DNA from: a virus
IMG/VR virus record: IMGVR_UViG_3300042691_039251
Span: 1 to 64,000 of that record
Strand: one strand, 5' to 3'
DNA: 64,000 nt
The notes beneath the pieces were generated by a model. The model did not search any database. It was given only the letters and a program-made list of their open reading frames with translations, and had not been told where the DNA came from. Each line of letters starts with the position of its first letter. Within the stretch, counting starts at the first letter, position 1. Positions 3,934-57,554 of this stretch are shown here, in pieces. A program made the position numbers and the translations under genes.

Positions 3934-4266
3934 ATGAATAAAAAAATGATTAGAGAATCTGACTTAGAAAAATTAGAAGAAGCTGCACAGCGAGGATCAG
4001 AAGAGATCATCGAACTTTCCAAACGACACTTTTGGAACAATTTGATCATAATTGGATTCAGCTTATATGCTGTTCTCTATTCTATCTTCACAGCTTATCC
4101 CAGGAGAGAAATGATCTGGGTCGCAATGATAGCAGTTCTCATAGCATCTGGAGAAAGATTCTACATACAACGCAAAATTAAAAAGAAGATCGTTGATCTC
4201 ACGACATTTTCGATGATCATAGATTTTTTAAAAAGAAGAAGAAATGAAAGTTCTTACAATAGGTGA
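3934..4266 (+). CDS. Hypothetical membrane protein
   Basis: Two hydrophobic segments. Confidence 0.7.
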   Translation: MNKKMIRESDLEKLEEAAQRGSEEIIELSKRHFWNNLIIIGFSLYAVLYSIFTAYPRREMIWVAMIAVLIASGERFYIQRKIKKKIVDLTTFSMIIDFLKRRRNESSYNR

Positions 4267-5056
4267 CATTCACGGAGACGACTGGTGGAAATCTGTAATT
4301 TTTGGAGCAGAACTCTTATACAGTTCCTTTAGAGAAAACAACAACATCAGCCACGATAATTTCAAATTCATCAAAGATGGTTTGGAAGTAGTCTTTGTCG
4401 GAGATTATGTCGATTCACATCACATTCCCAACCACGAAGTTCTCGAAAACTTGAGAGACATCGTTCATCTGGCTCGAAGTTTTCCAGATAGAGTGACACT
4501 CCTTTTAGGGAACCATGATATTCAATACATTGATACCAAGTATCGTTGCAGCGGATTCAGGGCTGAGCTTCTCCATGATTATAAAGAAATCTTTGAGACA
4601 AATAGAGACATCTTCAAACCTGCTTTCATGTTCGGCAACTATCTGGTCAGCCACGCAGGAGTCACTCAACGCCTCTGGAATATCTGCGAGAAGAAATTGA
4701 GAGAATCAAAACACCTCTACGACTATAACGATCCTGAAAAAACTATCGCGGATCACCTTAACTTTCTCTTTGAGATTAGATTTGAACCACTCTTCTACGC
4801 AGGGTGGGCTCGAGGCGGAATCTCTTCCACTCCAGGGATCTTCTGGGCTGATCAGAGAGAACTCATCGCAGATCCTCTTGCTGGATATTCCCAGATAGTA
4901 GGCCACACCCGCCAAAAAGAAAAGAATACTGTAGCCATTGAAGGTGGACATACTCTCCACTTTATCGATGTAGGTTCTAGAGATTCACACGACATTTTCG
5001 ACGTTGACACAAAAACAAAAGTCAGCAATCCTTCAACTAGAGGAATGAAGTATTAG
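4244..5056 (+). CDS. Metallophosphoesterase (calcineurin-like)
   Basis: GDIHG, GDYVD, GNHD, SHAG and GHT motifs. Confidence 0.9.
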   Translation: MKVLTIGDIHGDDWWKSVIFGAELLYSSFRENNNISHDNFKFIKDGLEVVFVGDYVDSHHIPNHEVLENLRDIVHLARSFPDRVTLLLGNHDIQYIDTKYRCSGFRAELLHDYKEIFETNRDIFKPAFMFGNYLVSHAGVTQRLWNICEKKLRESKHLYDYNDPEKTIADHLNFLFEIRFEPLFYAGWARGGISSTPGIFWADQRELIADPLAGYSQIVGHTRQKEKNTVAIEGGHTLHFIDVGSRDSHDIFDVDTKTKVSNPSTRGMKY

Positions 5057-5087
5057 AAACTTTTCTCAATCTTCTTATAGAAGATAT

Positions 5088-7013
5088 ATGAGAATAGCTT
5101 TCATCACTCCACATCTATCTACTGGAGGAATGCCTGAATATGTGCGGAGAAGCATTGAACTGATTGACAGGAAAGATCACGAAATCCTGTTGATTGAGAT
5201 GCGGACCGAGAAGATCCTAGATGCAGTCCGAAAGAGAGTCCTCGATCTCGAGGGCATACGCCTCTTTTCTGCTGAGAAGAGCACAATCAAAGCAATCGAG
5301 GAAATAGAACTCTTTGATCCTGAAGTGATCCATTTCACGGAACCTTCAGAGCAGACGATGGATCCTACGTATCTCGATCGGATCTATTGCACCGAAAGAA
5401 AGTGGAAGATCTTTGAGACCTGTCACGATTCTTCGTACCCTCTACCCTCTAAAAAATTCATGCCTGATAAGTTCTTGTTAGTCAGTCCTTTTCAGGTAAA
5501 GATGCTACAGTCTTTAGGGATTCCAGCTGAGCTCATCCAATACGACGTTCCAACTCTTGAAAAAAGGGATCGCGCTGAGACTCTTCAAAAATTGGGACTC
5601 GATCCTCAGAAGAAACACATCTTTCAATTTGGCATCTTTTCTCCCAGAAAAAATCAGAGTGAGACTGTGGAGATTGCTTCTCTGATGTTAGAAGAACCAG
5701 TTCAATTCCATTTTGTAGGAAACACTGCTGACAGCTATTCTTTCTATTGGAACCCCATCTTGGACAAGCTCCCTAAAAATTGTACATTTTGGGGTGAGCA
5801 TAAAGACGTCCAGCAATTCTATTCTATTGCAGATCTCGTCATCTTTCCTTCTATTGAGATCATAGACGATAAAGAGACTAATCCGTTAGTGATCAAAGAG
5901 ACAATTGCTTATGAGATACCTCTCCTCGTAAAAGACACTCCTGTCTATTTAGGAATGTATCCTGAAGGAGATCTAGTCTACCACATGAAATCAAGCAATG
6001 TCGAAAATGCAAAGCTCATCTCAGAAATTCTTAATTTTGAACAAAAACCAAATATGATAACTCTCAGCTTTAACGGCAAGGACAACACCCTCGAAGTCAC
6101 TTCTAAAAATCCCATCGGAAAAGCAGTGGTGGCAGTCAAGGACATAGACTCAGAAGTTCCAATCTATTCTTTTGACGTAAACTTTGAAAACCCAGGCTCT
6201 GCTTGGTGGTGCAAACCTATTCCCATCAACCACTACGATTTTCAGAACAATCCCAATTTCACAGGCTTCTTAGTACAGGTCTACTCAGAGGATAAAAAAG
6301 AGCTCTTAGGTGAGGCTACTCACATCATTAAAGAACACCAGGTCAAGAGGAGAATTCCAGGGATCGATAATTTCGAGCCGCTCTTCATCAATTATGAACA
6401 ATTTTTCGTGGATCGAATCTACGACGGATTCTTCTCTGGAGAGAGGATGGAAAAAATCATAGACGTAGGAGCCAACGTAGGACTCTTCACTCAGTGGGCT
6501 TTAGACCGTTTCGGAAGAGATTCTAAAGTCTTGGCATTCGAACCTCATCCTGGAGCAATAACAGCTTTTAAGAAGATACATGGAGACAAAGAAAATGTTG
6601 AATTGATTGAAGGTGCTGCTGCTCACTTTGAAGGCTCTTTGGAACTAGGCATTGATCCAAACAATTCTACGGTGTCTTCGATCAGCAAGAAAGAAAACGT
6701 CATCAAAGTTCCTGCATTTAAGATTTTGAATGAGATGAAGAAGAGAGGCTGGCTTTCAGCCGATCTTCTCAAAATAGACATTGAGGGCGCAGAATATGAT
6801 CTCATTGATGAGATGGAAGAATTTCCTTTTGAGAATCTCTTGATAGAATTCCACGACACCAAGCAAGATTGCGGACACTGTGCAGCCAACAAATTAAAAG
6901 AGAAACTAGAAACATTCGGCTACAAAGTCGATATGAGAAAAGAGGATACGAGATTTAGAGCTTCATCAGCAGACGTGAAGGGAGTCATCATCGCAAAACA
7001 AACTGGAAAATGA
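5088..7013 (+). CDS. GT4-like glycosyltransferase fused to FkbM-family methyltransferase
   Basis: N-terminal HLSTGGMP, PRKNQ, ETNPLVIKE; C-terminal IDVGANVG, AFEP, KIDIEGAE, IEFH. Confidence 0.85.
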   Translation: MRIAFITPHLSTGGMPEYVRRSIELIDRKDHEILLIEMRTEKILDAVRKRVLDLEGIRLFSAEKSTIKAIEEIELFDPEVIHFTEPSEQTMDPTYLDRIYCTERKWKIFETCHDSSYPLPSKKFMPDKFLLVSPFQVKMLQSLGIPAELIQYDVPTLEKRDRAETLQKLGLDPQKKHIFQFGIFSPRKNQSETVEIASLMLEEPVQFHFVGNTADSYSFYWNPILDKLPKNCTFWGEHKDVQQFYSIADLVIFPSIEIIDDKETNPLVIKETIAYEIPLLVKDTPVYLGMYPEGDLVYHMKSSNVENAKLISEILNFEQKPNMITLSFNGKDNTLEVTSKNPIGKAVVAVKDIDSEVPIYSFDVNFENPGSAWWCKPIPINHYDFQNNPNFTGFLVQVYSEDKKELLGEATHIIKEHQVKRRIPGIDNFEPLFINYEQFFVDRIYDGFFSGERMEKIIDVGANVGLFTQWALDRFGRDSKVLAFEPHPGAITAFKKIHGDKENVELIEGAAAHFEGSLELGIDPNNSTVSSISKKENVIKVPAFKILNEMKKRGWLSADLLKIDIEGAEYDLIDEMEEFPFENLLIEFHDTKQDCGHCAANKLKEKLETFGYKVDMRKEDTRFRASSADVKGVIIAKQTGK

Positions 7014-8107
7014 AAGAGATATTTTTAATTGACGCATATCTAAATACTGAAAAGAGCAAAATAGTCTTCAGAGAATCAATGACCCGGGTGAAAGAAGCCG
7101 GCTTTAAGATATGTCTGATCACAAATCTTCGCCCTGACGCAGACATTTTAAGTTTTGTCGATTACTGTTTTTTCGAAGACGAGAACAGAATCTTCTCTAC
7201 TGAATTTGAAGAGTACCCTAACATCATGATCACGGCACGTAGAAATGGCGTGACTCTTATTTCTGAATCTGATCACAAACAAAAACACTCTCTATCAGTT
7301 CACGTCAATCTGTACAGAGGAATGGAGATTCTCAAGTCTCTGGGTTACACTCATTTCTATAGAATGGAATATGATGGCCTCATCGATCCCAATGAATATC
7401 AGAAAGTCAGAGATCTTCCAAAGACGTTAGAAGGAAAGAGAGCTCTTTTCTATCGTGATAAAAAGAACATGCACATCTTCTACCACCTCTGGTTCGCTGA
7501 GATTGAATGGATGCTTGAAGCAATGACTCCGATTAGAACTGAAGAAGATTTTGTAAAGAGAGTAACGGAACTTGCAGGTAAGAAGAAGTTTCTTCCCGCT
7601 GAAGAATATCTCTCTTTGGATTTAGCTCATCGATACGATGAGGTTCTGCTTTTAGATACTGTTGATAACAGCATCAACTTTGAATTTCCTCTATCTAGAT
7701 GGAATAACGTGATCAGCGATCACACCAATGAGAAATTTAAGAAAGGCTTCTACGGAGGAATCTTTAGAATCGGTAGGGAGACTGAACAAGGAGTCCATAT
7801 CAGAGGAGATAAAGGTGCTGTCGTAGCTTGGAACCTAAACAGCCCTGATAGCAATTGGACAGAGGTAATCTTCTACAATAAAGAAGGCGGAGTTGACAGC
7901 AGTCTTAAGCTCGAACTCGAACAGGGAGAAGGCTGGAAGGCACAGTTCTTTGAATTTACCGAAGACTGCGAAGTTGAGGTCAGGCTGAGCAATGGTGAAA
8001 ATTATGCATTCTTGCTCTGTAAGAATTTTTTGAAGAAAACAAGAGACACAATATATTTGAATGAAGATAGCTCAGATCAACCCGGGTCTTCTCCCGATCC
8101 CGCCTAA
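7010..8107 (+). CDS. Hypothetical protein, possibly GT-A-like
   Basis: 365 aa, ATGA-coupled inside the GT operon; MEYD acidic motif. Confidence 0.7.
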   Translation: MKEIFLIDAYLNTEKSKIVFRESMTRVKEAGFKICLITNLRPDADILSFVDYCFFEDENRIFSTEFEEYPNIMITARRNGVTLISESDHKQKHSLSVHVNLYRGMEILKSLGYTHFYRMEYDGLIDPNEYQKVRDLPKTLEGKRALFYRDKKNMHIFYHLWFAEIEWMLEAMTPIRTEEDFVKRVTELAGKKKFLPAEEYLSLDLAHRYDEVLLLDTVDNSINFEFPLSRWNNVISDHTNEKFKKGFYGGIFRIGRETEQGVHIRGDKGAVVAWNLNSPDSNWTEVIFYNKEGGVDSSLKLELEQGEGWKAQFFEFTEDCEVEVRLSNGENYAFLLCKNFLKKTRDTIYLNEDSSDQPGSSPDPA

Positions 8108-10379
8108 CGGTTGGGGCGCAGTAGAAAAGATCATTTGGGAATACACTCAAGTCCTCAGAAACGCCGGCCACCAAGTCGACATTAAGTATTTGAACGAGAT
8201 ACATCCGGGAGAATACGATGTCGTACATGTTCACATGGCTAATCTCGCTCTCGAGCTAAAAGAAAAAGGCATCCCTTATTTCTTTTCGATGCACGACCAT
8301 CATGCTTATTGGTGGGGTAAGGAGTCTGGCTGCTTCCAGAACAACTTGGCTGCGATAGAAGGTTCAGTCCTTTCTTTCGTCCACGCTCAATTCTTGGTCG
8401 GCTATTTCGGTAGCTCTAAAGCAGTCTATTTAGAACACGGAGTCAACATAAAAGAGTACGCCTTTGTAGAAAGAGAAAGAAGAGAGAAAAAGCTTCTCTG
8501 TCTTGCTAACAATGGATTGATCAATGATCAAAGTCATGACAGAAAAGGATTCAGGTTCGCGATCGAAGCTGCTCGAAAATTGAATCTACCGATCACTGTA
8601 GCTGGACCTCAGAACAATAAGAAATTCTTTGATGCAAATCCTGATCTTCTCCAATACGGAAGGCTAAAAATACTTTACGATCTCGATCAAAAAGAATCGG
8701 TAGAGCTCTTTCAAGACCACGACATCTTTCTACATCCTTCTGAGCTCGAGGCAGGGCATCCAAATTTAACACTGTTAGAAGCAGCAGCGACAGGAATGCC
8801 TATCGTAGGTTGCATGGAATCTCCTATGGAAGGCTTGATTCTTGCTTCTCGCAATTCAGACGAATTTGCTTCTAAGATCAGAGAAGCTGTTGATGAATAT
8901 CCTCTATTGACCAGGCTCTCTCGAGAAAATGCAGAATATCATTCTTGGGAAGTCGTCTGCTCTAAAATGCTCGAACACTACGAAGACTCTTTAGGGTGGA
9001 AGATGGGAGAAAAGTTGATCAAGACTTATGAAAGTACTCCGATCAAAGAAAGGAGAGAAAAAAGCTCTGATCAATTAATAGTCAAATTTGGGTTGAGACC
9101 TGACTACATCAAGATCAACACAGAGGTAGGAATTCCTGGAGCTGGAATTGCAGTTCTCTACAAAGACAAGGGTCAAGTAGTTCACTATGTCGATCACGGA
9201 AAAGAATCTCGTAAGTGGTCAGCTTACTCTCATCAAGGAACATGGAGAGAATGGGAGATAGTTTTCAAGAACGGATCTGAAATCTTGAAAACTTTTAAGA
9301 TGGATCTTCGAGGAAAGTTGGTAGGTCTTTCTGGTGATTTTGATATTGTAGGTCTTCTATCTTTTGTCCAAGAGAAAGGATGCGTACCGATCATCATCGA
9401 TAAGTTACCGAATGAAAAGAAAATTCTTCTCAGAGAGCACGGGATTGCTTTTTCAGAAAGGAGCACCAAATTAGATTATTGGTTCAGCTGGGAGACTATC
9501 AAAAACTGGAGAGAAAAAAGAGAATTAGATGTCTCGGTTTCACAAAAAACTCTAATACATCTTAGAAGCAGAGCTCTAGGAGATACGATAGCATTCGTAG
9601 AATCTTGTAGAGATTGGAGAGAAAAGCACGATATCAAGCCGACAGTTGCAATCAACCCGGCTTTCATTGAACTTTTCAAAGGGCACGACTTAGACTTTAT
9701 CGATCAGAACAGTTTGAATCCATCTCTCTATTCTGACATCATCTTATCAGACTATCATTTTGATACTGAGCTGCAATACGGATTCCAACGAGATCTAGGA
9801 TTAGAATTGAAGAAGAGAAGACCGAAGATCGATTTCAGTCCTAAAGAAAGACCTATCAAAGGAAAATACATCTGTTTCAGCACTCATTCCACAGCTCAAT
9901 GTAAATACTGGAACTATCCTGACGGTTGGGAAATTCTCTGTAAGATGTTGAGAAGAGTAGGCATCACTCCAGTCTGCATCGACAGACACGAATCTTTCGG
10001 AATAGAAGGCCACTGGAATCCAGTACCTAAGTCTTCAGTGAAGAGGTTAGGAATGAACTTCAACGACATGATGAATCACCTCCACCACGCTGAAATCTAC
10101 GTCGGTCTCGGTAGTGGCCATTCTTGGTTGGCACATTCTTTAGGAAAAGAGACTGTGATGATCATAGGACCTACTTCGGGAGAATATGAAGAAGACAATT
10201 ACAAGATTCAAAATACTAACGTCTGCCACGGATGTTTCAACAAACCTCATTTGCACGCCTTCGATCCAGGAGATTGGATGTGGTGTCCTATAAATAAAGG
10301 CACCGAACGCCAACATGAGTGCACAAAGACAATCACTCCTGAAGAAGTGTACGAACAAATAATGGAACTTGTATGTTAG
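8061..10379 (+). CDS. GT4 domain fused to Aah/TibC-like (BAHT) protein O-heptosyltransferase domain
   Basis: N-terminal PPNGWGAVE and EAGHPNLTLLEA (GT4). C-terminal ALGDTI, STAQCKYWN, GLGSGHSWLA and iron-finger C-x2-C-x16-C-x11-C (CHGC..WMWCP..HECTKTI). Confidence 0.8.
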   Translation: MKIAQINPGLLPIPPNGWGAVEKIIWEYTQVLRNAGHQVDIKYLNEIHPGEYDVVHVHMANLALELKEKGIPYFFSMHDHHAYWWGKESGCFQNNLAAIEGSVLSFVHAQFLVGYFGSSKAVYLEHGVNIKEYAFVERERREKKLLCLANNGLINDQSHDRKGFRFAIEAARKLNLPITVAGPQNNKKFFDANPDLLQYGRLKILYDLDQKESVELFQDHDIFLHPSELEAGHPNLTLLEAAATGMPIVGCMESPMEGLILASRNSDEFASKIREAVDEYPLLTRLSRENAEYHSWEVVCSKMLEHYEDSLGWKMGEKLIKTYESTPIKERREKSSDQLIVKFGLRPDYIKINTEVGIPGAGIAVLYKDKGQVVHYVDHGKESRKWSAYSHQGTWREWEIVFKNGSEILKTFKMDLRGKLVGLSGDFDIVGLLSFVQEKGCVPIIIDKLPNEKKILLREHGIAFSERSTKLDYWFSWETIKNWREKRELDVSVSQKTLIHLRSRALGDTIAFVESCRDWREKHDIKPTVAINPAFIELFKGHDLDFIDQNSLNPSLYSDIILSDYHFDTELQYGFQRDLGLELKKRRPKIDFSPKERPIKGKYICFSTHSTAQCKYWNYPDGWEILCKMLRRVGITPVCIDRHESFGIEGHWNPVPKSSVKRLGMNFNDMMNHLHHAEIYVGLGSGHSWLAHSLGKETVMIIGPTSGEYEEDNYKIQNTNVCHGCFNKPHLHAFDPGDWMWCPINKGTERQHECTKTITPEEVYEQIMELVC

Positions 10380-11077
10380 ACAGCTGTATAGTCATCCCAT
10401 CTAGATGGGGATCTCAGAGGTTTCCAGGGAAGCCCTTGATACCGATAGTTGGAAAGACTATGGTGAAGAGAGTTCTCGAGAGAGCTGTACAAAGTTCTGC
10501 TGATGCAGTAATTGTTGCTACCGATGACGAGAGAATCTTTGATGAGTGTGAGGGCTATTCTATGATGACAGGAGATCTCCCTAACGGGACTGCTAGAGTG
10601 ATTGAAGCAGCAAAAAGGATCTCAGCCAGAGTCTACGTTAATCTGCAAGGAGACGAACCTCTGGCATCTCCAGAAGATTTGAATAAGTTGATCCAGAAAT
10701 GCCAGCAGATGCCTGGAGTCCATACTCTAATGACACGCATCTCTGAGGATGAATTACCTAATATGAACGTGGTCAAGGTCTTCTGTGATGACGAGAATGA
10801 ATGCTGGCTCTTTACAAGATCAGCCAAGAATTTCGGCTGCTACAAACACATTGGGATCTACGCATTTGATAGAGAGACTTTAAAGAAGATAGAAAATCTA
10901 AATCCTACACCGAACTCTCTAGCAGAAGCCCTCGAGCAGATAACCTGGCTCGACCACGAAATTCCCATCTATGCCTGGTACACCACCAACAGATACCAAG
11001 CTGTAGATTCTTTCGAAGACGTACAAAAAGTGATAGAAATACTAAATGAAGATAGCCTGCATAATCCCAACGTATAA
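10373..11077 (+). CDS. kdsB: CMP-Kdo synthetase-like cytidylyltransferase
   Basis: IPSRWGSQRFPGKPL, VATDDERI, NLQGDEP, HIGIYAF, LEQ. Confidence 0.85.
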   Translation: MLDSCIVIPSRWGSQRFPGKPLIPIVGKTMVKRVLERAVQSSADAVIVATDDERIFDECEGYSMMTGDLPNGTARVIEAAKRISARVYVNLQGDEPLASPEDLNKLIQKCQQMPGVHTLMTRISEDELPNMNVVKVFCDDENECWLFTRSAKNFGCYKHIGIYAFDRETLKKIENLNPTPNSLAEALEQITWLDHEIPIYAWYTTNRYQAVDSFEDVQKVIEILNEDSLHNPNV

Positions 11078-11729
11078 CTTCCTCTCGGGAGTAAAACGGA
11101 TCTCACATTGGATCTCGACAGAGTACCACCACCTCGCTGCTGAACACAGAGCAGTAGTGGTAGATGACCACTCAGATTCGAACAATGTGAAAGAATTTAA
11201 TAGACTAGGAAGTCTCGAGAATTTCACGGTGCTTCCTTCTAGAGGGATGCGAAGCCTCAGAGATTCTATCCTGACCGGATACGATCACGTTAAAGACTGG
11301 AAGCCTGATGTGATCCACATCATCGAAACAGATGCAATGCCGCAGACAGCTACGCTCCAAGCAATGCTCAGAGTTTATAGAGAAGCTCGTGGCAATGTCG
11401 GATCAGTCAGCCCGATTTATACTTGGGGAGGAAAGAACTGCTACCCTACTCACAAACACTGGTTTTCTGATCAACCTGCAAGAGAGCATTTTTCAACTGG
11501 CCCTGTCAGAGAACCGGGAGCCTGCGGAGTACCTTTTCTCTTTAGCATTTGGCGCCCAGAGCTCTTCGAGCTCATGAGAGATGAGAAGTTACCGCCCTTA
11601 GGACATTTAGATTCTGAGTTCGGTAGAGTAGTCCACGAAGCAGGTTACCGCCACCTCAGAGTAACTAACTACACGATCGAACATTGGATGGGCGGTCGTA
11701 ATTCAGACGCACTAAAACTATCAAAATAA
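11046..11729 (+). CDS. GT2-like glycosyltransferase
   Basis: IIPTYN, VVDDHS, IETD motifs. Confidence 0.7.
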   Translation: MKIACIIPTYNFLSGVKRISHWISTEYHHLAAEHRAVVVDDHSDSNNVKEFNRLGSLENFTVLPSRGMRSLRDSILTGYDHVKDWKPDVIHIIETDAMPQTATLQAMLRVYREARGNVGSVSPIYTWGGKNCYPTHKHWFSDQPAREHFSTGPVREPGACGVPFLFSIWRPELFELMRDEKLPPLGHLDSEFGRVVHEAGYRHLRVTNYTIEHWMGGRNSDALKLSK

Positions 11730-12214
11730 TGGGACTAGACATTTTTGCAATTGAAAAAGCTGCTCGAATAGCCGACTACGAAGAAAAGATAGAACTCTTA
11801 GAAGTAGACGAAGAACAGGTGGTAAGAGTGAAAGTCAACGAGGCTTTCAAATCTCATGATCACATCACAGACGGGATCTACAGATGGGAAGGCAGAACTG
11901 CGGAGTTCGGATCTGCTTATGGAACTTACGGCGGATTCAGAAGCGCTCTCTGTCTCTTGGCTCACGGCGTCTTTCCCCCGATCGTCTGGAACAACCCAGA
12001 CCTCTATGAAGGCGGTGATTTTTATGAGCTGATCAATTTTTCAGACTGCGAGGGGGCCATCGGACCCACTACTGCAGGAAAGCTTTTGACCGATTTTAAG
12101 AAGCACAGAGAAAGATATTTCGAACAGAACAACGAGTGGGACTGCGAGAGATACGATGATTGGATCGAGGCCTTAGACATAGCTTCTAATGACGGTCTCA
12201 TCATCTTTTGCTGA
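11729..12214 (+). CDS. Hypothetical phage protein (MGLDI...FSDCEG)
   Basis: 161 aa, TAATG coupling. Confidence 0.75.
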   Translation: MGLDIFAIEKAARIADYEEKIELLEVDEEQVVRVKVNEAFKSHDHITDGIYRWEGRTAEFGSAYGTYGGFRSALCLLAHGVFPPIVWNNPDLYEGGDFYELINFSDCEGAIGPTTAGKLLTDFKKHRERYFEQNNEWDCERYDDWIEALDIASNDGLIIFC

Positions 12215-12230
12215 TTCCTTTTCTCTCGTG

Positions 12231-12238
12231 GATAAATA
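12231..12238 (+). promoter_or_regulatory. GATAAATA late-promoter-like element
   Basis: Intergenic, just before ATG 12243; same 8-mer at 14216, 30177 and 47673. Confidence 0.5.
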
Positions 12239-12242
12239 ACCC

Positions 12243-12770
12243 ATGGAGAAGATAGTCGGTAGTTTTCAGAGTTTTAAGAGCATCGGAGATAAGAGAAAAG
12301 AGGTCGAGTCTCTAGTCAACGGCGATAAGCCGGTAGATTTTAAGGGACACGATTTTGAAAGATACGTCTCTTCGATGATCCTCTTCTTTGAATCTTTGGG
12401 ATTCGTCCTCAAGCCTTATCCGACAATTGAATTCTCTGACGAGAAGAAATACGATAACGAACTTCTCGGATATACCGGACACTATTTCTTCGATCAAAAA
12501 CACATCGTCCTCTACACTGAAGGCCGACATGTGAAAGACATTATGAGAAGCTTGGCTCACGAGCTCGTCCACCACAACCAATTCATGAGAGGCATCACTC
12601 TCGATAACGTCGATCAGATGAAGCTCAGCGATCCTGCATGGTCTGAGAAAGAAGAATTCTTAAAACACTTGGAAGACTATTCATATCTCGAAGGCGATGC
12701 CTATCTCAGAGGCAACATGCTCTTCAGAACCTGGACAGATGCCATCAAGCAAGGACTGATAAAACTATGA
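12243..12770 (+). CDS. Zinc metallopeptidase-like protein
   Basis: LAHELVHHNQ (HExxH) and downstream EGDAY. Confidence 0.75.
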   Translation: MEKIVGSFQSFKSIGDKRKEVESLVNGDKPVDFKGHDFERYVSSMILFFESLGFVLKPYPTIEFSDEKKYDNELLGYTGHYFFDQKHIVLYTEGRHVKDIMRSLAHELVHHNQFMRGITLDNVDQMKLSDPAWSEKEEFLKHLEDYSYLEGDAYLRGNMLFRTWTDAIKQGLIKL

Positions 12771-13366
12771 GAAGAGAGCTCTTCAAAGCATATTACGGAC
12801 GTTACACTTTCGACGTCGATAAAGCCTATGATTTGATCAAACAGGGCAAGATAAAAGCTGATGTGATAGATCTCAATTCAAGGATCGCTCAAAGCCTGAT
12901 CTTTTTCACAGGTGTTCACGATGATCACGTCGGAACAAAGGATTCTGCATCAGGAGACATTGACGGACTTATGGTCAAGTTCTCTGACCCGGAACACCCT
13001 GACGACACAATGATCATTGACGGCAACCACAGAATCAATGCAAAAATCAGAGCTTCTCGTCCTACTGTGAAGCTCCTCTACATCAAAAATCCTGGTGACA
13101 CTAAAAAGTTTCTTACTATCGATAGAAAGAAGCCGAAAGATCTCTTTCCGGAAGAAGATGCCGTCATGGAGAAGCTCGTGAAGACCTTCGAAGAATTTGT
13201 GAACGAGAAGAAAGAGTCTCCCTATTCAGAAGAGACTCTAAAGAAATACAAAGAAGAGCACGAGAAAGGAAAGAAAATCCCTTTTGCAATAGAGAGAAGT
13301 CTCAAAGCTCAAGGAATGATACCTCGAGTAGATGGGACCACTCGAAAATCAGACATGTACAAATGA
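12767..13366 (+). CDS. ParB/Srx-like domain protein
   Basis: IIDGNHR motif; internal MEKLVKTFEEFVNE segment. Confidence 0.6.
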   Translation: MRRELFKAYYGRYTFDVDKAYDLIKQGKIKADVIDLNSRIAQSLIFFTGVHDDHVGTKDSASGDIDGLMVKFSDPEHPDDTMIIDGNHRINAKIRASRPTVKLLYIKNPGDTKKFLTIDRKKPKDLFPEEDAVMEKLVKTFEEFVNEKKESPYSEETLKKYKEEHEKGKKIPFAIERSLKAQGMIPRVDGTTRKSDMYK

Positions 13367-14217
13367 AGAAAATCACGCTGATCTTTTTCCTGCTCTTGTC
13401 AGGAATTTCTTATTCTCAAGAGAGACAACAGAAAGAAGCTGTTAGAAGCCAGCAGAGCTCTCAGCCAACAAGACAATACATCCCTCAAGAGAGACAACAG
13501 AAAGAAATTGTTAGAGAACAAGCTAACAGATCTTCTCAAAGACCAATTGTCACCGACCCTCGAGGCAGAGGCAATGTCTTCCATCCTGGATGGGATGACT
13601 GGGGCTGGGGATGGAACAGATGGAACAGATGGGGTGCACCCATCGGATATAATTTCTGGACTCCAGGCTTCTACTATGACCCTTGGGGCTACCGCAATCC
13701 CACACGAATCTATCACTACAATGACAACCGAAGAGATACGGTCAGAGGCAAAGCAACAAGGGTTTCATTCGGAGTCCAAGGTTCAACGGGTGGACAGGTT
13801 GGAGCTTTCCTGACTCTTGGTAACCGAGGATACTTCATAGCTGAATATAACCAGATCTTTCAGAGAGACGAGTCTCTCTTTTATCCAGACCTCACGATGG
13901 ACAAAGTTCTTCCTTGGAACGATCAGAAGCTCGAAGACATACAAAAAGGCAACATAGTCTATCTCGGTTTCGGAAAGAAGATCTCAAGGACTGGGCTTCA
14001 CGCATCAATGGGTTTCGGCAGAGCAGAAAAAAGATACCAATTCTTCGATGAGCTCTTCATACTTTCCAACAATGGCAAGTATTCAGTCAGAGAATTCAAT
14101 GAGAACTTTTTCACTGTAAAGATCGGAGCATTGCACGATTTTGGCAGAGGAACTTTGAAAGTCGATTATGATCCCATCAGAAAACAAGCTTTCTTTGGAG
14201 CAGGTGTCAATTTTTGA
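13363..14217 (+). CDS. Signal-peptide protein, probable outer-membrane beta-barrel
   Basis: MKKITLIFFLLLSGISYS signal peptide, amphipathic strands, terminal GAGVNF. Confidence 0.6.
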   Translation: MKKITLIFFLLLSGISYSQERQQKEAVRSQQSSQPTRQYIPQERQQKEIVREQANRSSQRPIVTDPRGRGNVFHPGWDDWGWGWNRWNRWGAPIGYNFWTPGFYYDPWGYRNPTRIYHYNDNRRDTVRGKATRVSFGVQGSTGGQVGAFLTLGNRGYFIAEYNQIFQRDESLFYPDLTMDKVLPWNDQKLEDIQKGNIVYLGFGKKISRTGLHASMGFGRAEKRYQFFDELFILSNNGKYSVREFNENFFTVKIGALHDFGRGTLKVDYDPIRKQAFFGAGVNF

Positions 14218-14239
14218 TAAATAACAAAATATAGAATAG

Positions 14240-14533
14240 ATGAAACACGTTAAATTATTTGAAGAATTTGACAGAGTGGAAGAGGCTCACGAAGATCTTC
14301 AAAACTACATGTTCTTCAGCAACTTAGAATCCATCAAGCGTAAATGCGAATCTATCCTCGCGATGGACTTCAAAGCTATCGATGAACTCCTCAATGCAGG
14401 AGGCCACGACTGGGCTGCAGATCACATTACGGTAGCCAAAGAAAACATCGATCAGGTAGAAAATTTCTTAGTCGGTCAATTCAAGGACGCTCACCAAGCA
14501 GAGCCTGAATTACCTGAGGTTCCTACGACATAA
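14240..14533 (+). CDS. Hypothetical protein, possible internal head protein
   Basis: MKHVKLFEEF N-terminus; preceded by GATAAATA at 14216. Confidence 0.7.
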   Translation: MKHVKLFEEFDRVEEAHEDLQNYMFFSNLESIKRKCESILAMDFKAIDELLNAGGHDWAADHITVAKENIDQVENFLVGQFKDAHQAEPELPEVPTT

Positions 14534-14551
14534 GAAAAACTTAAAACATTT

Positions 14552-14577
14552 AAAACCCGCTTCGGCGGGTTTTTTTT
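14552..14577 (+). terminator. Rho-independent terminator
   Basis: AAAACCCGC-TTCG-GCGGGTTTT plus T-run. Confidence 0.9.
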
Positions 14578-14603
14578 GTGAAACTTTTTGATTCTTTCCT
14601 TAT

Positions 14604-14819
14604 ATGATTAAAAACCTTCTCATGGAATACTCTATCAGCACTAGAAGAGGAGATGAGCTGGGATTCTTCATCGGACACAATCTAGAAGGATTGAAAAAGA
14701 TGATAGAATTCTTGGGGCACGAGATCAAAGAAATAAAAACAGATGGGACACCAGATCAAACCGGAAGTAACCTGTGGATGCAAAGTACCGAAAGGTTGGG
14801 GCGAGGAGCTGATAATTGA
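14604..14819 (+). CDS. Hypothetical protein
   Basis: 71 aa, follows a promoter-like motif; 77-nt overlap with next gene. Confidence 0.45.
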   Translation: MIKNLLMEYSISTRRGDELGFFIGHNLEGLKKMIEFLGHEIKEIKTDGTPDQTGSNLWMQSTERLGRGADN

Positions 14820-15123
14820 GAACAATGAGCTCTACTGCGGTAAGCTCTTGATCTTCAAGCAGGGCTGTAAATTCTCAATGCACTACCACATGGAGAAAGA
14901 TGAGACTTGGTACGTCGACAAGGGAGAATTCATCTACCGATGGATCGACACTGAGACAGCCGAAGTTAATGAGACCAATCTAAAAGTAGGAGATGTGGTA
15001 AGACAACGTCCAGGCCAACCTCACCAATTAGAAGCTCTAACTGATGGAGTCATATTTGAAGTATCAACTGAACACAAAGACGAAGATTCTTACAGAGTAT
15101 GGAAAGGGAACTCGCAACAATGA
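14743..15123 (+). CDS. Cupin-domain protein (sugar isomerase-like)
   Basis: VPKGWGEE, SMHYHMEKDETW, PGQPH, EVST. Confidence 0.8.
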   Translation: MGHQIKPEVTCGCKVPKGWGEELIIENNELYCGKLLIFKQGCKFSMHYHMEKDETWYVDKGEFIYRWIDTETAEVNETNLKVGDVVRQRPGQPHQLEALTDGVIFEVSTEHKDEDSYRVWKGNSQQ

Positions 15124-15527
15124 AAGTTTGGGTGAATGGGACGTTTGACGTCTTTCACCCAGGACATCTGGCTCTGCTTAAATATGCAGCGAGAAAAGGA
15201 GAAGTCCACGTCGGAATAGACTCTGATCTTAGAGTGAAAGAACTCAAAGGACCTAATAGGCCCGTCTTTAGCCAAGAGCAGAGAAAAGAGATGCTTGAAT
15301 CTCTCAAGTTCGTAGAGAAAGTCTACATCTTTTACACTGACCACGATCTCGAGAGGATCATGACTGAAGTAGATCCTACGCTGATGGTCATCGGATCAGA
15401 CTATGAGAACAAGAAGATCATCGGCAGACACATCCCTCGCGGAATCTTGTTTTTTAACAGGATCAAGGGCATCTCTTCCTCTGAGATTTTGAACTACACA
15501 TGGAACAACAGCGACAAACCCGAATGA
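15120..15527 (+). CDS. HldE/RfaE domain II-like nucleotidyltransferase (ADP-heptose synthesis)
   Basis: NGTFDVFHPGH, GIDSD, KGPNRP, GSDY, GISSS; start at ATG 15120 (ATGA overlap). Confidence 0.8.
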   Translation: MKVWVNGTFDVFHPGHLALLKYAARKGEVHVGIDSDLRVKELKGPNRPVFSQEQRKEMLESLKFVEKVYIFYTDHDLERIMTEVDPTLMVIGSDYENKKIIGRHIPRGILFFNRIKGISSSEILNYTWNNSDKPE

Positions 15528-16363
15528 AGATCACTATAATCGGAGAAAAATGCATAGACGAATTTGTCTACGGTGATTGCACTCGGTTGAATCCCGAAGC
15601 GCCAACTCCTGTCTTTATTGAGAATTACCGAAAGATAAATTTAGGGATGGCCAGTAACGTAGCTGAGAATCTCGTTAGTCTCGGTGGGATCGAAATCGTT
15701 AGAAGACACCAACGAGTAGAGATCAGAAAGACCCGTTTTGTCGATGAGACTTCTAATTATATCTTGCTCAGAGCTGATTCTGAGAAAAACGTGGATCGGA
15801 TTGAGATTGACAAAGAACTCATAGAACACATCACGACATCTGACCTTCTCGTGGTCTCTGACTACGATAAAGGTTACCTACATCCAGAAGATTTGAAGGT
15901 CGTAGCGAGCTTCGCAAAGGCCTCAGTGATAGACACGAAGAAGCCTATCCAAGATATCTGGGCTCAAGAATTTGACTTCATTAAGATGAATTCTAAAGAG
16001 TGGAGCAACTCCGCTCACGAAAACAAAGAGAGATACTTAGAGAAAGCAATAATCACGCAGGGGAAAAATGGTGCAGTCTGGAATGGAAAGTCTTACAAGG
16101 GTGTGGAAGCAGAAGTGATGGACGTGGCCGGAGCAGGAGATTCATTCTTAGCTGGATTTGCTCACAGATGGATCAATTCAGCAGGTGATGTCGAATCTGC
16201 GATAGCTTTTGGAAATGAAATTGCAGCTCTCGTGGTCAAACGACGAGGAGTGGTGAATAAAATTGGAGAGGTGGCAGAGCGGTCGAACGCGGCGGTCTTG
16301 AAAACCGTTGACTGTAACAGGTCCGGGGGTTCGAATCCCTCCCTCTCCGCACTGGTTCCGTAG
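15524..16363 (+). CDS. HldE/RfaE domain I-like PfkB kinase (heptose-7-P kinase)
   Basis: RLNPEAPTPV, GMASNV, SDYDKG, DVAGAGDSF; the 3' end reads through tRNA-Ser. Confidence 0.8.
   Translation: MKITIIGEKCIDEFVYGDCTRLNPEAPTPVFIENYRKINLGMASNVAENLVSLGGIEIVRRHQRVEIRKTRFVDETSNYILLRADSEKNVDRIEIDKELIEHITTSDLLVVSDYDKGYLHPEDLKVVASFAKASVIDTKKPIQDIWAQEFDFIKMNSKEWSNSAHENKERYLEKAIITQGKNGAVWNGKSYKGVEAEVMDVAGAGDSFLAGFAHRWINSAGDVESAIAFGNEIAALVVKRRGVVNKIGEVAERSNAAVLKTVDCNRSGGSNPSLSALVP
16265..16349 (+). tRNA. tRNA-Ser(TGA)
   Basis: GGAGAGG/CCTCTCC acceptor stem, GCGGT-CT TGA AA-ACCGT anticodon arm, long variable arm, GGTTCGAATCC. Confidence 0.95.
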
Positions 16364-16426
16364 CTCAGTGGATAGAGCAACTGCCTTCTAAGCAGTAGGT
16401 CATTGGTTCGAATCCAATCGGGATCA
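16354..16426 (+). tRNA. tRNA-Arg(TCT)
   Basis: GGTTCCG/CGGGATC acceptor stem, ACTGC-CT TCT AA-GCAGT anticodon arm, GGTTCGAATCC. Confidence 0.95.
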
Positions 16427-16430
16427 CAGG

Positions 16431-17728: not shown

Positions 17729-18037
17729 ATGCCAACACCTAAAATCAAAAAAATCATTAAGGAATACGGAGATGCTACCGCGTATGAGATCTGGGAAGGT
17801 ATTAGAGACAATTTCATTTTTGGATTCTTAGGAGCAACTCTCGTCGTCTTTATTTCAACTCGAGTCGACGCTGCAGTATTCATCGGTTACATCAGCTACT
17901 ATTATTTCATGGGAAGAATAGTCAACCGGCCCAAGTACGTGACTTCTCTCGGAAAAATGATCGTCTTTCCAATACCTTCTGCTCTCGGAGCTTTTACGGG
18001 TTATAAAGTCGCTTATCTCATTCCGCAATTATTATGA
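17729..18037 (+). CDS. Hypothetical membrane protein
   Basis: Several hydrophobic segments. Confidence 0.7.
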   Translation: MPTPKIKKIIKEYGDATAYEIWEGIRDNFIFGFLGATLVVFISTRVDAAVFIGYISYYYFMGRIVNRPKYVTSLGKMIVFPIPSALGAFTGYKVAYLIPQLL

Positions 18038-23279: not shown

Positions 23280-23283
23280 AGAT

Positions 23284-42848: not shown

Positions 42849-42920
42849 CAAAGCAAATCTAGTTTTGGCCGGATACCGCATATCGAACACATCGGGCATT
42901 GCCCTTTCCACTGACAACGA
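42849..42920 (+). repeat. 72-bp direct repeat spanning a fibre gene start (copy 1)
   Basis: Identical to 57483-57554. Confidence 0.85.
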
Positions 42921-57482: not shown

Positions 57483-57554
57483 CAAAGCAAATCTAGTTTT
57501 GGCCGGATACCGCATATCGAACACATCGGGCATTGCCCTTTCCACTGACAACGA
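57483..57554 (+). repeat. 72-bp direct repeat (copy 2)
   Basis: Identical to 42849-42920; 57473-57518 is also identical to 61304-61349. Confidence 0.85.

What the first reader, a model, noticed from the sequence alone, without database searches (positions are those of the whole stretch)
8061..16363. Phage-encoded protein O-heptosylation system: Aah/TibC-like heptosyltransferase plus split HldE, with Ser-rich virion fibres as candidate substrate
Seen: the C-terminal domain of 8061..10379 has LGDT, STAQCKYWN, SWLA and a C-x2-C-x16-C-x11-C cluster; 15120 and 15524 encode separate HldE-like adenylyltransferase and kinase domains. Known: bacterial autotransporter heptosyltransferases (Aah, TibC) carry this iron-finger and use ADP-heptose, made by HldE, to modify Ser in Gly/Ser repeats. 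Inference: no autotransporter is present here, and the obvious Ser-rich targets are the hundreds of GTS/GSS triplets in seven fibre genes. The phage may make its own donor and hyper-glycosylate its fibres for folding, receptor binding or shielding. I know of no characterised phage BAHT pathway.
Basis: partly seen in the sequence, partly recalled or inferred. Interest (0 to 1): 0.88.

Follow-up and report, generated by a model that had tools for sequence, protein, structure and literature searches.

The report
Phage TibC-like enzyme for collagen-like fibres
A large uncultured phage encodes a true relative of TibC, the E. coli enzyme that sugar-coats adhesins, together with heptose-pathway-like genes, and comparison with other phages suggests that it sugar-coats the phage's own serine/threonine-rich collagen-like tail fibres, although no sugar has been observed.

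Summary
ORF 8061-10379 (772 aa) ends in a real Aah/TibC-type (BAHT) domain: TIGR04414 E 8.6e-58, PDB TibC E 1.9e-31, model-to-TibC TM 0.88. The catalytic Asp, the phosphate and sugar contacts and all four iron-finger Cys are present. It groups with BAHTs, not with LPS GT9 enzymes.

HldC-like and HldA-like genes are there but score below the curated cut-offs. No gmhA or gmhB is in the 89.7 kb held, and the adenine-contact Arg of TibC is Met here. The donor is therefore probably an NDP-heptose, but this is not settled.

The fibre-substrate idea gains comparative support.
- 30 of 85 BAHT-anchored viral loci carry a proline-free Gly-Ser/Thr-Ser/Thr collagen-like gene within 10 kb, 12 of them within 417 bp.
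- 0 of 80 control loci from the same phage group do.
- Proteobacterial BAHT genes sit next to AIDA adhesins.

A cupin travels with the viral HldA and HldC genes (50 of 82 loci) and may replace GmhA.

Nothing is shown biochemically. This scan reached the same reading before on other phage DNA. I found no paper on it. Verdict: a new variant of a known kind.

The parts
4244..5056 (+). Calcineurin-like metallophosphoesterase, first gene of a tightly packed block (4244-12214) after a 322-nt gap
   Evidence: Pfam Metallophos E 2.5e-8; gene spacing. Its role in the pathway is not shown.
5088..7013 (+). GT1-type glycosyltransferase fused to an FkbM methyltransferase; conserved partner of the BAHT gene
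   Evidence: Pfam Glycos_transf_1 E 2.7e-11 and Methyltransf_21 E 8e-10. Homologue present in 52 of 85 BAHT-anchored viral loci.
7010..8107 (+). Conserved protein of unknown family. The same module occurs as a domain inside viral multi-domain Aah/TibC-type glycosyltransferases.
   Evidence: No Pfam or NCBIfam hit. Homologue in 19 of 85 loci. Atlas structural neighbours include viral clusters auto-named 'Aah/TibC family' at TM 0.53-0.61, which is a lead only.
8061..10379 (+). 772-aa three-part enzyme: GT4-type domain (aa ~1-310), a beta-rich domain plus alpha/beta insert (aa ~340-487), and a BAHT (TibC/Aah-type) catalytic domain with a 4-Cys finger (aa 493-769 = nt 9537-10367)
   Evidence: No hydrophobic segment was found (max KD19 1.42), so it is probably soluble.
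10373..11077 (+). KdsB-like CMP-sugar (CMP-Kdo type) synthetase
   Evidence: Pfam CTP_transf_3 E 1.7e-37. NCBIfam NF003952 scores 199.9 bits, over its 193-bit cut-off. No KdsA-type gene in the record held.
11046..12214 (+). Two small ORFs (11046-11729 and 11729-12214) of unknown family that end the block
   Evidence: No family hit. Included only because of the tight packing.
14743..15123 (+). Metal-type cupin, mannose-6-P/lyxose-isomerase-like. It is a candidate sugar-phosphate isomerase in the GmhA slot; alternatively it modifies an NDP-heptose.
   Evidence: Pfam Cupin_2 E 7e-8 with weak Lyx_isomer and MannoseP_isomer hits. 76-91% identical in the 120 best clusters. Within 10 kb of viral HldA genes in 50 of 82 loci, and within 3 kb in 49.
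15099..15527 (+). HldC-like nucleotidyltransferase (heptose-1-P adenylyltransferase-like)
   Evidence: TIGR02199 E 4.1e-25, below cut-off. PDB: ECT E 4e-16 and Burkholderia 5x9q E 1.7e-10. It has G-I-S-S-S where the promiscuity hallmark is G-R-S-T-T (PMC11573728, passages).
15500..16363 (+). HldA-like PfkB kinase (heptose-7-P kinase-like). The likely start is 15524. The conserved protein ends where tRNA-Ser (16265-16350) begins, and the ORF reads on through the tRNA gene.
   Evidence: TIGR02198 E 1.4e-30, below cut-off. The best PDB hit is the heptose 7-phosphate kinase 4e84, E 1.9e-11. Alignment A3; tRNAs.
38500..42846 (+). Tail-fibre paralogue 1: 65-aa head, 222-aa Gly-X-Y run, distal modules, S74 chaperone
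42865..47691 (+). Tail-fibre paralogue 2 (228-aa Gly-X-Y run)
48079..53241 (+). Tail-fibre paralogue 3 (150-aa Gly-X-Y run; Collagen + Peptidase_S74)
53228..57481 (+). Tail-fibre paralogue 4 (210-aa Gly-X-Y run)
57499..60312 (+). Tail-fibre paralogue 5 (285-aa Gly-X-Y run; Collagen + Peptidase_S74)
61330..64000 (+). Tail-fibre paralogue 6. It runs past the window to 65211 of the record.

Best explanation
This is a phage-encoded cytoplasmic protein O-glycosylation cassette. Its most likely acceptors are the Ser/Thr-rich Gly-X-Y (collagen-like) stalks of the phage's own six tail-fibre paralogues. The BAHT-type domain of the 772-aa enzyme (catalytic base D508; phosphate and sugar contacts T611, K615, W689; a Cys4 finger) would put the first sugar on Ser/Thr hydroxyls of fibre chains before or during trimerisation. 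The fused GT4 domain, the neighbouring GT1-FkbM protein and other transferases would extend and methylate that sugar. The donor is most likely an NDP-heptose. Part of its supply would come from the adjacent cupin, HldC-like and HldA-like trio (isomerase-like, nucleotidyltransferase, kinase), with the missing steps taken from the host or from unsequenced parts of the genome. Shown here: the homology, the fold, the conserved catalytic residues and the conserved linkage to such fibre genes. Inferred: the acceptor, the sugar, the order of steps and the benefit (triple-helix stabilisation, shielding or receptor binding).
For: (1) Family. TIGR04414 gives E 8.6e-58 and 7.1e-60 on the DNA. PDB TibC gives E 1.9e-31. 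The AlphaFold model has pLDDT 91.8 and superposes on TibC with TM 0.88 and rmsd 1.8 A, against WaaC at TM 0.55.
(2) Residues named in the TibC paper (PMC4358343, section 11 and passages): D110, T226, K230 and W305 and the four iron-finger Cys all have identical counterparts here. They are conserved in 155 aligned domains.
(3) Linkage. 30 of 85 BAHT-anchored viral loci (1.29 Mb) hold an ORF with at least 8 Gly-X-Y triplets that are at least 50% Ser/Thr. 0 of 80 loci (1.26 Mb) anchored on an unrelated gene of the same phage group do. Fisher p = 1.2e-10.
(4) The linkage survives dereplication: 24 of 65 clusters at 90% identity, 16 of 49 at 70% and 7 of 18 at 50%. 12 of the 30 lie within 417 bp of the BAHT gene, in varied orientations and with varied enzyme architectures.
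(5) Whole records. In a 195-kb record the only such gene lies 407 bp from the BAHT gene. In a complete 318-kb genome the only such gene or genes lie about 4 kb away.
(6) Among 82 HldA-anchored loci, such fibres occur in 3 of the 9 that also hold a BAHT and in 0 of the 73 that do not.
(7) Precedent for adjacency. In 3 of 4 proteobacterial loci tested, the gene just downstream of the BAHT gene is an AIDA-type adhesin, the known substrate class.
(8) The Gly-Ser/Thr reading frame is the real one. It is the longest frame and includes non-repeat ends, among them an S74 chaperone.
(9) The enzymes have no transmembrane-like segment.
Against: No glycan has been seen on any fibre.
In this window the enzyme block (4244-12214) and the fibres (from 38500) are 26 kb apart. 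They do not share the GATAGATA box that precedes each fibre gene.
55 of the 85 BAHT loci show no such fibre within 10 kb, although many of these loci are cut by contig ends.
The heptose pathway is incomplete. There is no gmhA or gmhB in the record held, and no gmhA in five related records, two of them complete genomes.
HldA and HldC score below the curated cut-offs.
Two complete BAHT-bearing genomes lack HldA, HldC and the cupin.
The adenine-contact Arg-286 is Met here.
The hydrophobic thumb tip that builds the TibC dodecamer is not conserved, so the substrate-threading mechanism of TibC may not apply.
The literature usually reads phage glycosyltransferases and rfaE in fibre regions as host-LPS modifiers (PMC7029224, passages).
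Loci of related phages are not independent samples.
Confidence: 0.6

Rival explanations
1. Host-envelope remodelling. The cassette (BAHT-like/GT9-like, GT1, GT4, KdsB, heptose genes) modifies the host's LPS core, O-chain or capsule during infection, for example to block superinfection. The fibres would be unrelated neighbours.
For: Heptose and Kdo are typical LPS-core sugars, and a KdsB-like gene overlaps the 3' end of the BAHT gene. GT25 'LPS biosynthesis' and many other transferases lie nearby. The pelagimyophage paper reads glycosyltransferases and rfaE in the fibre hypervariable region this way (PMC7029224, passages). Here the enzyme genes are 26 kb from the fibres.
Against: The domain belongs to the protein-glycosylating BAHT branch, with its iron finger, and not to LPS GT9. 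The specific and repeated adjacency to Gly-Ser/Thr fibre genes is not expected under this reading: 30 of 85 against 0 of 80, and 12 immediate neighbours. No membrane-association segment was seen, which is weak evidence.
Confidence: 0.15
2. The enzyme is a fibre or virion glycosyltransferase as above, but the donor is not ADP-heptose. The viral BAHT clade would use another NDP-sugar or another nucleotide carrier, and the HldA/HldC/cupin trio would serve a different glycan.
For: The counterpart of TibC Arg-286, which contacts adenine N1, is Met here. It is Arg in 68 of 74 proteobacterial sequences but in only 22 of 81 sequences of the viral clade (PMC4358343, section 11). Only 9 of 82 viral HldA loci hold a BAHT within 10 kb. 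Two complete BAHT-bearing genomes lack the trio. No gmhA was found.
Against: W305, which contacts heptose O4, and the phosphate contacts are conserved. Where both are present, the trio sits right beside the BAHT gene (L055, L060; 8 of the 9 within 3 kb). The best family and PDB hits of the kinase are heptose-7-P kinases.
Confidence: 0.15
3. The acceptor is a different protein surface: the beta-helix-like GNVGIG distal modules of the fibres, other virion proteins, or a host beta-helical adhesin. This would mirror TibC's strand-loop-strand acceptor sites rather than a collagen-like chain.
For: All characterised BAHT substrates are beta-helical autotransporter passengers (PMC4358343, abstract and passages). 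The window's fibres have long non-collagen distal regions with repeated GNVGIG-type modules.
Against: Across loci, the shared feature of the linked genes is the Gly-Ser/Thr-Ser/Thr tract itself, up to 2,778 residues in one run, with differing ends. No AIDA domain was found in the window fibres scanned.
Confidence: 0.08

Closest known systems
TibC-TibA and Aah-AIDA-I of E. coli (bacterial autotransporter heptosyltransferases, BAHT; TIGR04414; PDB 4rap/4rb4)
   Same: It has the same catalytic GT-B domain (TM 0.88). The Asp base, the Thr/Lys phosphate contacts and the Trp sugar contact are the same. It has the same Cys4 finger with nearly the same spacing. The enzyme is soluble. In relatives, the enzyme gene sits next to a long, repetitive, Ser/Thr-rich structural protein.
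   Different: The candidate acceptor is a collagen-like Gly-X-Y chain of a virion fibre, not a beta-helical autotransporter. The domain is fused behind a GT4 domain and carries an extra ~70-aa alpha/beta insert. The adenine-contact Arg is Met. The hydrophobic thumb tip of the dodecamer contact is not conserved. The selectivity position Pro-300 (TibC) / Ser-294 (AAH) is Gly. The viral sequences form their own block in the tree, apart from the proteobacterial ones.
LPS heptosyltransferases WaaC/WaaF (GT9)
   Same: GT-B fold, an ADP-heptose donor and the LGD-type catalytic motif.
   Different: The relation is far weaker: Pfam GT9 E 3e-4, below cut-off, and Foldseek E 5e-9 with TM 0.52-0.61. These enzymes have no iron finger and their acceptor is a lipid.
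HldE / HldA + HldC ADP-heptose pathway, and the viral NDP-heptose biosynthetic enzymes reported by Tang et al. 2024 (seen only through two commentaries, PMC11461863 whole text and PMC11573728 passages)
   Same: A PfkB kinase and a cytidylyltransferase-fold enzyme have the two HldE domains as best hits. The commentaries say that viruses have the isomerase, kinase and nucleotidyltransferase but no phosphatase, and that the role in viruses is unsolved.
   Different: Here the two are separate genes in the reverse order, and the kinase is short (~247 aa). No GmhA-type isomerase was found. Instead a small metal-type cupin accompanies them (50 of 82 viral loci). The STTR5 Arg hallmark of nucleotide promiscuity is absent.
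Glycosylated collagen-like surface fibres: BclA of Bacillus anthracis, Mimivirus fibrils/L230, galactosyl-Thr collagen of Riftia; virion glycosylation in mycobacteriophages (all recalled; the last is seen only as a title phrase in the search listing)
   Same: A collagen-like or virion surface protein is glycosylated by dedicated transferases. In Riftia, sugar on Thr of Gly-X-Y is reported to stabilise the triple helix (recalled).
   Different: None of these uses a BAHT-type enzyme or heptose. The hosts and the enzyme families differ.

Membership tests
BAHT (TIGR04414 hepto_Aah_TibC) | Scores over the curated HMM cut-off (200 bits) | tested here: inconclusive
   196.1 bits and 197.7 bits, E about 1e-58. 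The match covers model positions 81-373 only, so the shortfall comes from the unmatched N-terminal 80 positions.
BAHT (TIGR04414 hepto_Aah_TibC) | GT-B catalytic domain superposable on TibC and closer to it than to LPS GT9 enzymes | tested here: met
   Foldseek to 4rap gives E 1.5e-23, TMq 0.88 and rmsd 1.8 A. WaaC gives E 5e-9 and TMq 0.55.
BAHT (TIGR04414 hepto_Aah_TibC) | Catalytic base Asp-110 and donor contacts Thr-226, Lys-230 and Trp-305 | tested here: met
   T611, K615 and W689 come from the alignment with TibC. D508 in LGDT is invariant in 155 of 155 aligned domains. The equivalence of D508 with D110 rests on the family alignment, not on a printed TibC alignment.
BAHT (TIGR04414 hepto_Aah_TibC) | Arg-286 contacting adenine N1 (ADP specificity) | tested here: not met
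   The aligned residue is M670. Arg is present in 68 of 74 proteobacterial sequences and in 22 of 81 sequences of the viral clade.
BAHT (TIGR04414 hepto_Aah_TibC) | Four-Cys iron finger | tested here: met
   C722, C725, C742 and C754 align with TibC C339, C342, C358 and C370. Iron binding itself cannot be tested with these tools.
BAHT (TIGR04414 hepto_Aah_TibC) | N-terminal flattened beta-barrel packed on the catalytic domain | tested here: inconclusive
   The model shows about 8 strands at aa 340-413, followed by an alpha/beta insert. A Trp in this part is nearly invariant in alignment A2, which includes classical-length BAHTs. The longer model did not raise the TM-score to TibC (0.64-0.67, rmsd 9-10 A).
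BAHT (TIGR04414 hepto_Aah_TibC) | Beta-hairpin thumb with a hydrophobic tip; dodecameric ring | tested here: inconclusive
   A hairpin is predicted. TibC F265/V266 align with G650/H651, and the V266-aligned tip position is gapped in 34 of the 81 viral-clade sequences. The oligomeric state was not tested.
BAHT (TIGR04414 hepto_Aah_TibC) | Substrate is a neighbouring autotransporter adhesin | tested here: not met
   No AIDA domain in the four window fibre-region proteins scanned; three of them are Collagen + Peptidase_S74. Proteobacterial homologues do have AIDA neighbours (3 of 4 tested).
BAHT (TIGR04414 hepto_Aah_TibC) | Transfers heptose from ADP-heptose to protein Ser | not testable with these tools
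   This needs an enzyme assay or glycoproteomics.
HldE (bifunctional heptose-7-P kinase / heptose-1-P adenylyltransferase) | Both domains score over the equivalog cut-offs and are fused | tested here: not met
   rfaE_dom_I scores 106.5 of 345 bits and rfaE_dom_II 88.3 of 181.5 bits. They are separate ORFs in the reverse order. They remain the best-hitting families, and the best PDB hit of the kinase is the heptose 7-phosphate kinase 4e84.
Complete ADP-heptose pathway (GmhA, HldA/E, GmhB, HldC/E) | GmhA isomerase and GmhB phosphatase present | tested here: not met
   No match at E <= 1 in the 89.7-kb record, which is about 30% complete. No gmhA in five related viral records. Absence from the full genome is not shown.
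Collagen-like triple-helix proteins (PF01391) with S74 chaperone fibres | Continuous Gly-X-Y register plus a C-terminal Peptidase_S74 domain | tested here: met
   Gly-X-Y runs of 150-285 aa in six genes. Collagen E 5e-24 to 6.5e-36 and Peptidase_S74 E 3e-14 to 5e-17 in the three fibres scanned. Triple-helix formation was not tested.

The most novel reading that the evidence does not exclude
Large aquatic phages stabilise and decorate proline-poor collagen triple helices by dense O-heptosylation of Ser/Thr in Gly-X-Y. They would do so with a viral branch of the TibC/Aah family that has switched its acceptor from beta-helical adhesins to collagen-like chains. A viral NDP-heptose route would feed it, in which a small metal cupin replaces GmhA. 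This would answer the question, stated as open, of why viruses encode heptose-nucleotide enzymes. It would also describe a hydroxyproline-independent, sugar-dependent form of collagen.
Probability: 0.2. Interest if true: 0.85.

Novelty: new variant of a known kind. Interest (0 to 1): 0.7.

Why it matters
BAHTs are known only as partners of proteobacterial virulence adhesins. A large viral branch tied to giant proline-free collagen-like fibres would widen the family's substrate range. It would give a concrete, testable role for virus-encoded heptose-nucleotide enzymes, which commentaries on Tang et al. 2024 call unsolved. It would also challenge the habit of reading phage glycosyltransferases near fibre genes as host-LPS modifiers. 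Glycan-coated fibres would bear on host recognition and on virion stability in lakes and oceans. They would offer a bacterial-type system for making glycosylated collagen-like materials.

Tried and rejected
HAD 16536-17114 as the missing GmhB-type phosphatase: rejected. Its homologues are conserved in at least 266 viral stretches, but none of the 80 fetched loci has HldA, the cupin or a BAHT within 10 kb, and only 2 have an HldC-like gene. Only 4 of 82 HldA loci hold it. Its Pfam family is HAD_SAK_2. A different small HAD (about 106 aa, 'capsule biosynthesis phosphatase' E 4.5e-6) lies near viral HldA in 28 of 82 loci, but it has no homologue in this record.

STTR5 promiscuity hallmark in the HldC-like protein: I first misread the motif. 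The second commentary gives (F/L)XXGRSTT, and the window has G-I-S-S-S, so the hallmark is absent.

A shared substrate-binding module among the three enzymes 5088, 7010 and 8061: BLASTP found no significant similarity.

A shared late promoter: GATAGATA occurs 6 times in 66 kb, each time before a fibre gene, and never before the enzyme genes. There is therefore no promoter-level support for co-expression.

An SDR near viral HldA as HldD: GalE-type models score better than the heptose epimerase model, so this is not diagnostic.

A longer model (aa 320-772) to show the TibC beta-barrel: inconclusive.

Reverse co-occurrence (what share of Gly-Ser/Thr fibre genes have a BAHT nearby): not done; see the last paragraph.

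Complex prediction was not used. An enzyme-substrate pair is a poor use of it, and I claim no binding result.

The supplements of the TibC paper and of the Tang et al. paper were not seen. Tang et al. 2024 itself was not read, only two commentaries. Its list of viral enzymes may bear on the cupin question.

Full report
WHAT THE WINDOW IS. The window is the first 64 kb of an 89,678-base IMG/VR virus record that CheckV estimates at about 30% complete. That implies a phage of roughly 300 kb. Nearly all genes are on the + strand. The left half holds many sugar-metabolism genes. These include GT1+FkbM, GT4+BAHT, KdsB-like, three further cytidylyltransferase-fold genes, a PfkB kinase, a cupin, GT25, GT2, a GT34-like gene, four DUF6734 proteins, two 2OG-Fe(II) oxygenases and methyltransferases. 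The right half holds six paralogous fibre genes.

THE OBSERVATION. ORF 8061-10379 encodes 772 aa.
- aa 493-769 match TIGR04414 (autotransporter strand-loop-strand O-heptosyltransferase) at E 8.6e-58 and 196 bits. The cut-off is 200, and only model positions 81-373 are matched.
- aa 579-764 match crystallised TibC at E 1.9e-31.
- A model of aa 480-772, built on a 34-sequence alignment, has pLDDT 91.8. It superposes on TibC at TM 0.88 and rmsd 1.8 A. The LPS enzymes WaaC and WaaF reach only TM 0.52-0.61.
- Pfam GT9 scores only E 3e-4, below its cut-off.

RESIDUES. The TibC paper (PMC4358343; I read section 11 and the passages found) names these residues: Asp-110 as the base; Thr-226 and Lys-230 on the beta-phosphate; Trp-305 on heptose O4; Arg-286 on adenine N1; Pro-300 (Ser-294 in AAH) for D,D versus L,D selectivity; Cys-339/342/358/370 for the iron finger; and Phe-265/Val-266 at the thumb tip.
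- In the printed alignment, T611, K615, W689 and the four Cys are identical to their TibC counterparts.
- Arg-286 aligns with M670, Pro-300 with G684, and F265/V266 with G650/H651.
- In 155 aligned domains, the Asp of LGDT and the Trp are invariant, and the Thr (Ser in a few), the Lys and the four Cys are nearly so.
- The Arg is present in 68 of 74 proteobacterial sequences but in only 22 of 81 sequences of the viral clade.
The catalytic machinery is therefore intact, but the determinant of the ADP carrier is not kept.

ARCHITECTURE. The N-terminal ~310 aa are a GT4/GT1-type domain. A model of aa 320-772 (pLDDT 83.6) shows a beta-rich domain at aa 340-413 and an alpha/beta insert at aa 420-487 ahead of the catalytic domain. 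An alignment that includes classical 380-400-aa BAHTs keeps a nearly invariant Trp in the beta-rich part. The longer model, however, did not fit TibC any better. Whether this part is the TibC beta-barrel therefore stays open. No hydrophobic segment was found in any enzyme of the block.

HOW COMMON THE DOMAIN IS.
- An exhaustive HMMER search of 1.84 billion representatives found 1,118 clusters at E <= 1e-3 and 355 at E <= 1e-30. Most of the best 150 are proteins of 600-2,000 aa, some with 2-4 matched stretches.
- Among 50,697 GenBank phage records, only four match the C-terminal domain: three unannotated huge-phage records and Microcystis phage Mel-JY01, where the gene is labelled FkbM methyltransferase.
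- ESM-Atlas holds all-viral clusters that are automatically named 'Aah/TibC family'.
The label therefore exists in automatic annotation. Searches for papers found nothing on a phage BAHT: 'collagen-like' + phage + heptosyltransferase gave 0 papers; phage + 'autotransporter heptosyltransferase' gave 2 reviews; heptosyltransferase + phage + 'tail fiber' + glycosylat gave 1 unrelated genome paper.

THE TEST OF THE FIBRE HYPOTHESIS. I fetched 85 viral loci anchored on the domain, with up to 10 kb on each side.
- 35 of them hold an ORF with at least 8 consecutive Gly-X-Y triplets. In 30 of them at least half of the X/Y residues are Ser/Thr and Pro is essentially absent.
- The Gly-Ser/Thr frame is the longest of the six frames. 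It carries non-repeat ends, including an S74 chaperone like that of the window's fibres.
- As a control I anchored 80 loci on the HAD gene 16536-17114. This gene is conserved at 58-70% identity in the same phage group and is unrelated to sugars. None of the 80 has such an ORF, and 2 of 80 have Gly-X-Y runs poor in Ser/Thr. Fisher p = 1.2e-10.
- Related phages are not independent samples, so I clustered the enzymes. 24 of 65 clusters at 90% identity, 16 of 49 at 70% and 7 of 18 at 50% keep the neighbour.
- The gap to the enzyme gene is 417 bp or less in 12 of the 30 and under 2 kb in 16. The fibre gene lies on either side and either strand, and the enzymes range from 292 to 1,447 aa.
- Whole records. 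In a 195-kb record the only such gene (3,343 aa) starts 407 bp from the enzyme gene. In a complete 318-kb genome the only such gene or genes lie about 4 kb away, across the record's ends. In a complete 322-kb genome one of three lies 5 kb away.
- Of 80 bacterial-genome loci, 4 have such ORFs. Three of those four fall inside the viral block of a FastTree of 155 domains. That block is separate from a proteobacterial block (midpoint rooted, no outgroup).
- In 3 of 4 proteobacterial loci tested, the gene just downstream of the enzyme gene is an AIDA-type adhesin. In this family the substrate is typically encoded next door, and in phages the gene next door is the Gly-Ser/Thr fibre.
- A GT1+FkbM homologue of 5088-7013 accompanies the domain in 52 of 85 loci, and a homologue of 7010-8107 does so in 19 of 85. 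The conserved unit is therefore a multi-enzyme cassette.

WHAT WEAKENS THE HYPOTHESIS HERE. In this window the cassette is 26 kb from the first fibre gene. The GATAGATA box that precedes each of the six fibre genes (6 of 6 occurrences in 66 kb) is absent from the cassette. 55 of the 85 loci show no fibre within reach, although many of these loci end at contig ends. No experiment exists.

THE DONOR. The ORFs at 15099 and 15500 have the two HldE domains as best NCBIfam hits, but far below the cut-offs. The kinase's best PDB hit is the Burkholderia heptose 7-phosphate kinase. The transferase hits ethanolamine-phosphate cytidylyltransferase slightly better than the Burkholderia 5x9q 'putative cytidylyltransferase' entry.
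- No gmhA or gmhB is found in the record held. No gmhA is found in five related records, two of them complete genomes.
- Anchoring on the kinase gave at least 534 viral stretches. Of the 82 loci fetched, 50 have the cupin of 14743-15123 and 50 have the HldC-like gene, in both cases 49 within 3 kb. 9 have a BAHT, 8 of them within 3 kb. 3 have Gly-Ser/Thr fibres, and all 3 are among the 9 with a BAHT.
- The cupin is 76-91% identical across the 120 best clusters. It has a His-x-His...Glu...His pattern of the metal-cupin kind (read; the motif is recalled). It has weak mannose-6-P and lyxose isomerase hits.
- No GmhA-like family recurs near the viral kinase genes. I therefore infer that the cupin fills the isomerase slot. 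The alternative is an NDP-heptose-modifying enzyme, as the cupins of Campylobacter heptose pathways are (recalled).
- The commentaries on Tang et al. 2024 state that viruses have isomerase, kinase and nucleotidyltransferase but no phosphatase, and that the role in viruses is unsolved (PMC11461863, whole text; PMC11573728, passages).
- Two complete BAHT-bearing genomes lack the trio. The trio is therefore an accessory, and the donor must often come from the host.

COMPARISON AND VERDICT. This works like Aah/TibC: a soluble GT-B enzyme that multiply O-glycosylates a repetitive structural protein. At the domain level it is a member of that family. It departs in the acceptor class, the domain fusion, the loss of the adenine-contact Arg and the degenerate thumb tip. 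I file it as a new variant of a known kind.

This scan has reached the same reading before on other phage DNA: 238 notes hold the search words, and eight follow-ups were shown. That is not independent evidence. What this window adds is the cupin, HldC-like and HldA-like donor module next to the cassette, the clade-wide loss of Arg-286, and fibres that mix Gly-Pro-Gln blocks with Gly-Thr-Ser blocks. Over 448 triplets, X is T 184, P 125, S 67 and Y is S 215, Q 125.

Noticed in passing
window 16265-16363: The HldA-like ORF has no stop codon where its homologues end (about codon 255). It reads 32 more codons through the tRNA-Ser gene (16265-16350) to a stop at 16361-16363. tRNA-Arg follows at 16354-16427. 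Excision of the tRNA would leave a non-stop mRNA.
   Followed up: partly
window 38472, 42838, 48051, 53178, 57473, 61304: GATAGATA occurs exactly six times in the first 66 kb. Each copy lies 26-50 nt before one of the six collagen-fibre genes. This is probably a fibre-specific promoter element.
   Followed up: partly
window 22027-25372: Two 2OG-Fe(II) oxygenases (22027, 23284), a Methyltransf_24 (22677) and a GT25 (24782) lie together. GT25 is the family that includes animal collagen galactosyltransferases (recalled). This is a possible second, hydroxylation-based fibre modification route.
   Followed up: no
window 18034-19872, 21086-22030, 29234-30046, 31914-32996: Four divergent DUF6734 paralogues of unknown function are scattered among the sugar genes.
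   Followed up: no
window 16536-17114: This HAD_SAK_2 protein is conserved at 58-70% identity in at least 266 viral stretches. It is not linked to the sugar genes. It is a useful marker of this phage group.
   Followed up: partly
window 17114-17662 and 26829-27266: Two further cytidylyltransferase-fold genes are present. Homologues of 26829 lie within 3 kb of viral HldA genes in 39 of 82 loci, and homologues of 17114 in 20 of 82. The phmmer hits of the three paralogues overlap, so these counts are not separate families.
   Followed up: partly
L130 (genome contigs, 26.8-kb contig of a MAG labelled uncultured Saprospirales): This is the closest 'bacterial' homologue of the BAHT domain (47% identity). 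It sits on a phage-like contig that also has an HldC-like gene. It is either a mis-binned phage or a host clue. ORFs in the record with Bacteroidota-style signal peptides point the same way.
   Followed up: no
viral HldA-anchored loci L290-L371: Recurrent neighbours of the viral kinase are a GalE-like SDR (36 of 82 loci), a ~106-aa HAD 'capsule biosynthesis phosphatase'-like protein (28 of 82), a 134-aa unknown protein (12 of 82) and a DegT-type aminotransferase (8 of 82). This suggests further heptose tailoring.
   Followed up: partly
IMG/VR contig behind L002, L032 and L314 (238 kb): One phage record holds two separate BAHT-type genes about 50 kb apart, with an HldA-like gene between them.
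   Followed up: no
window 19887-21089: A C-5 cytosine DNA methyltransferase sits between two DUF6734 genes.
   Followed up: no
L005 16197-17030 (548-kb viral contig): A protein made almost wholly of Ser runs lies a few kb from the BAHT cassette, beside LamG-type fibre genes and a Gly-Ser-Ser fibre.
   Followed up: no
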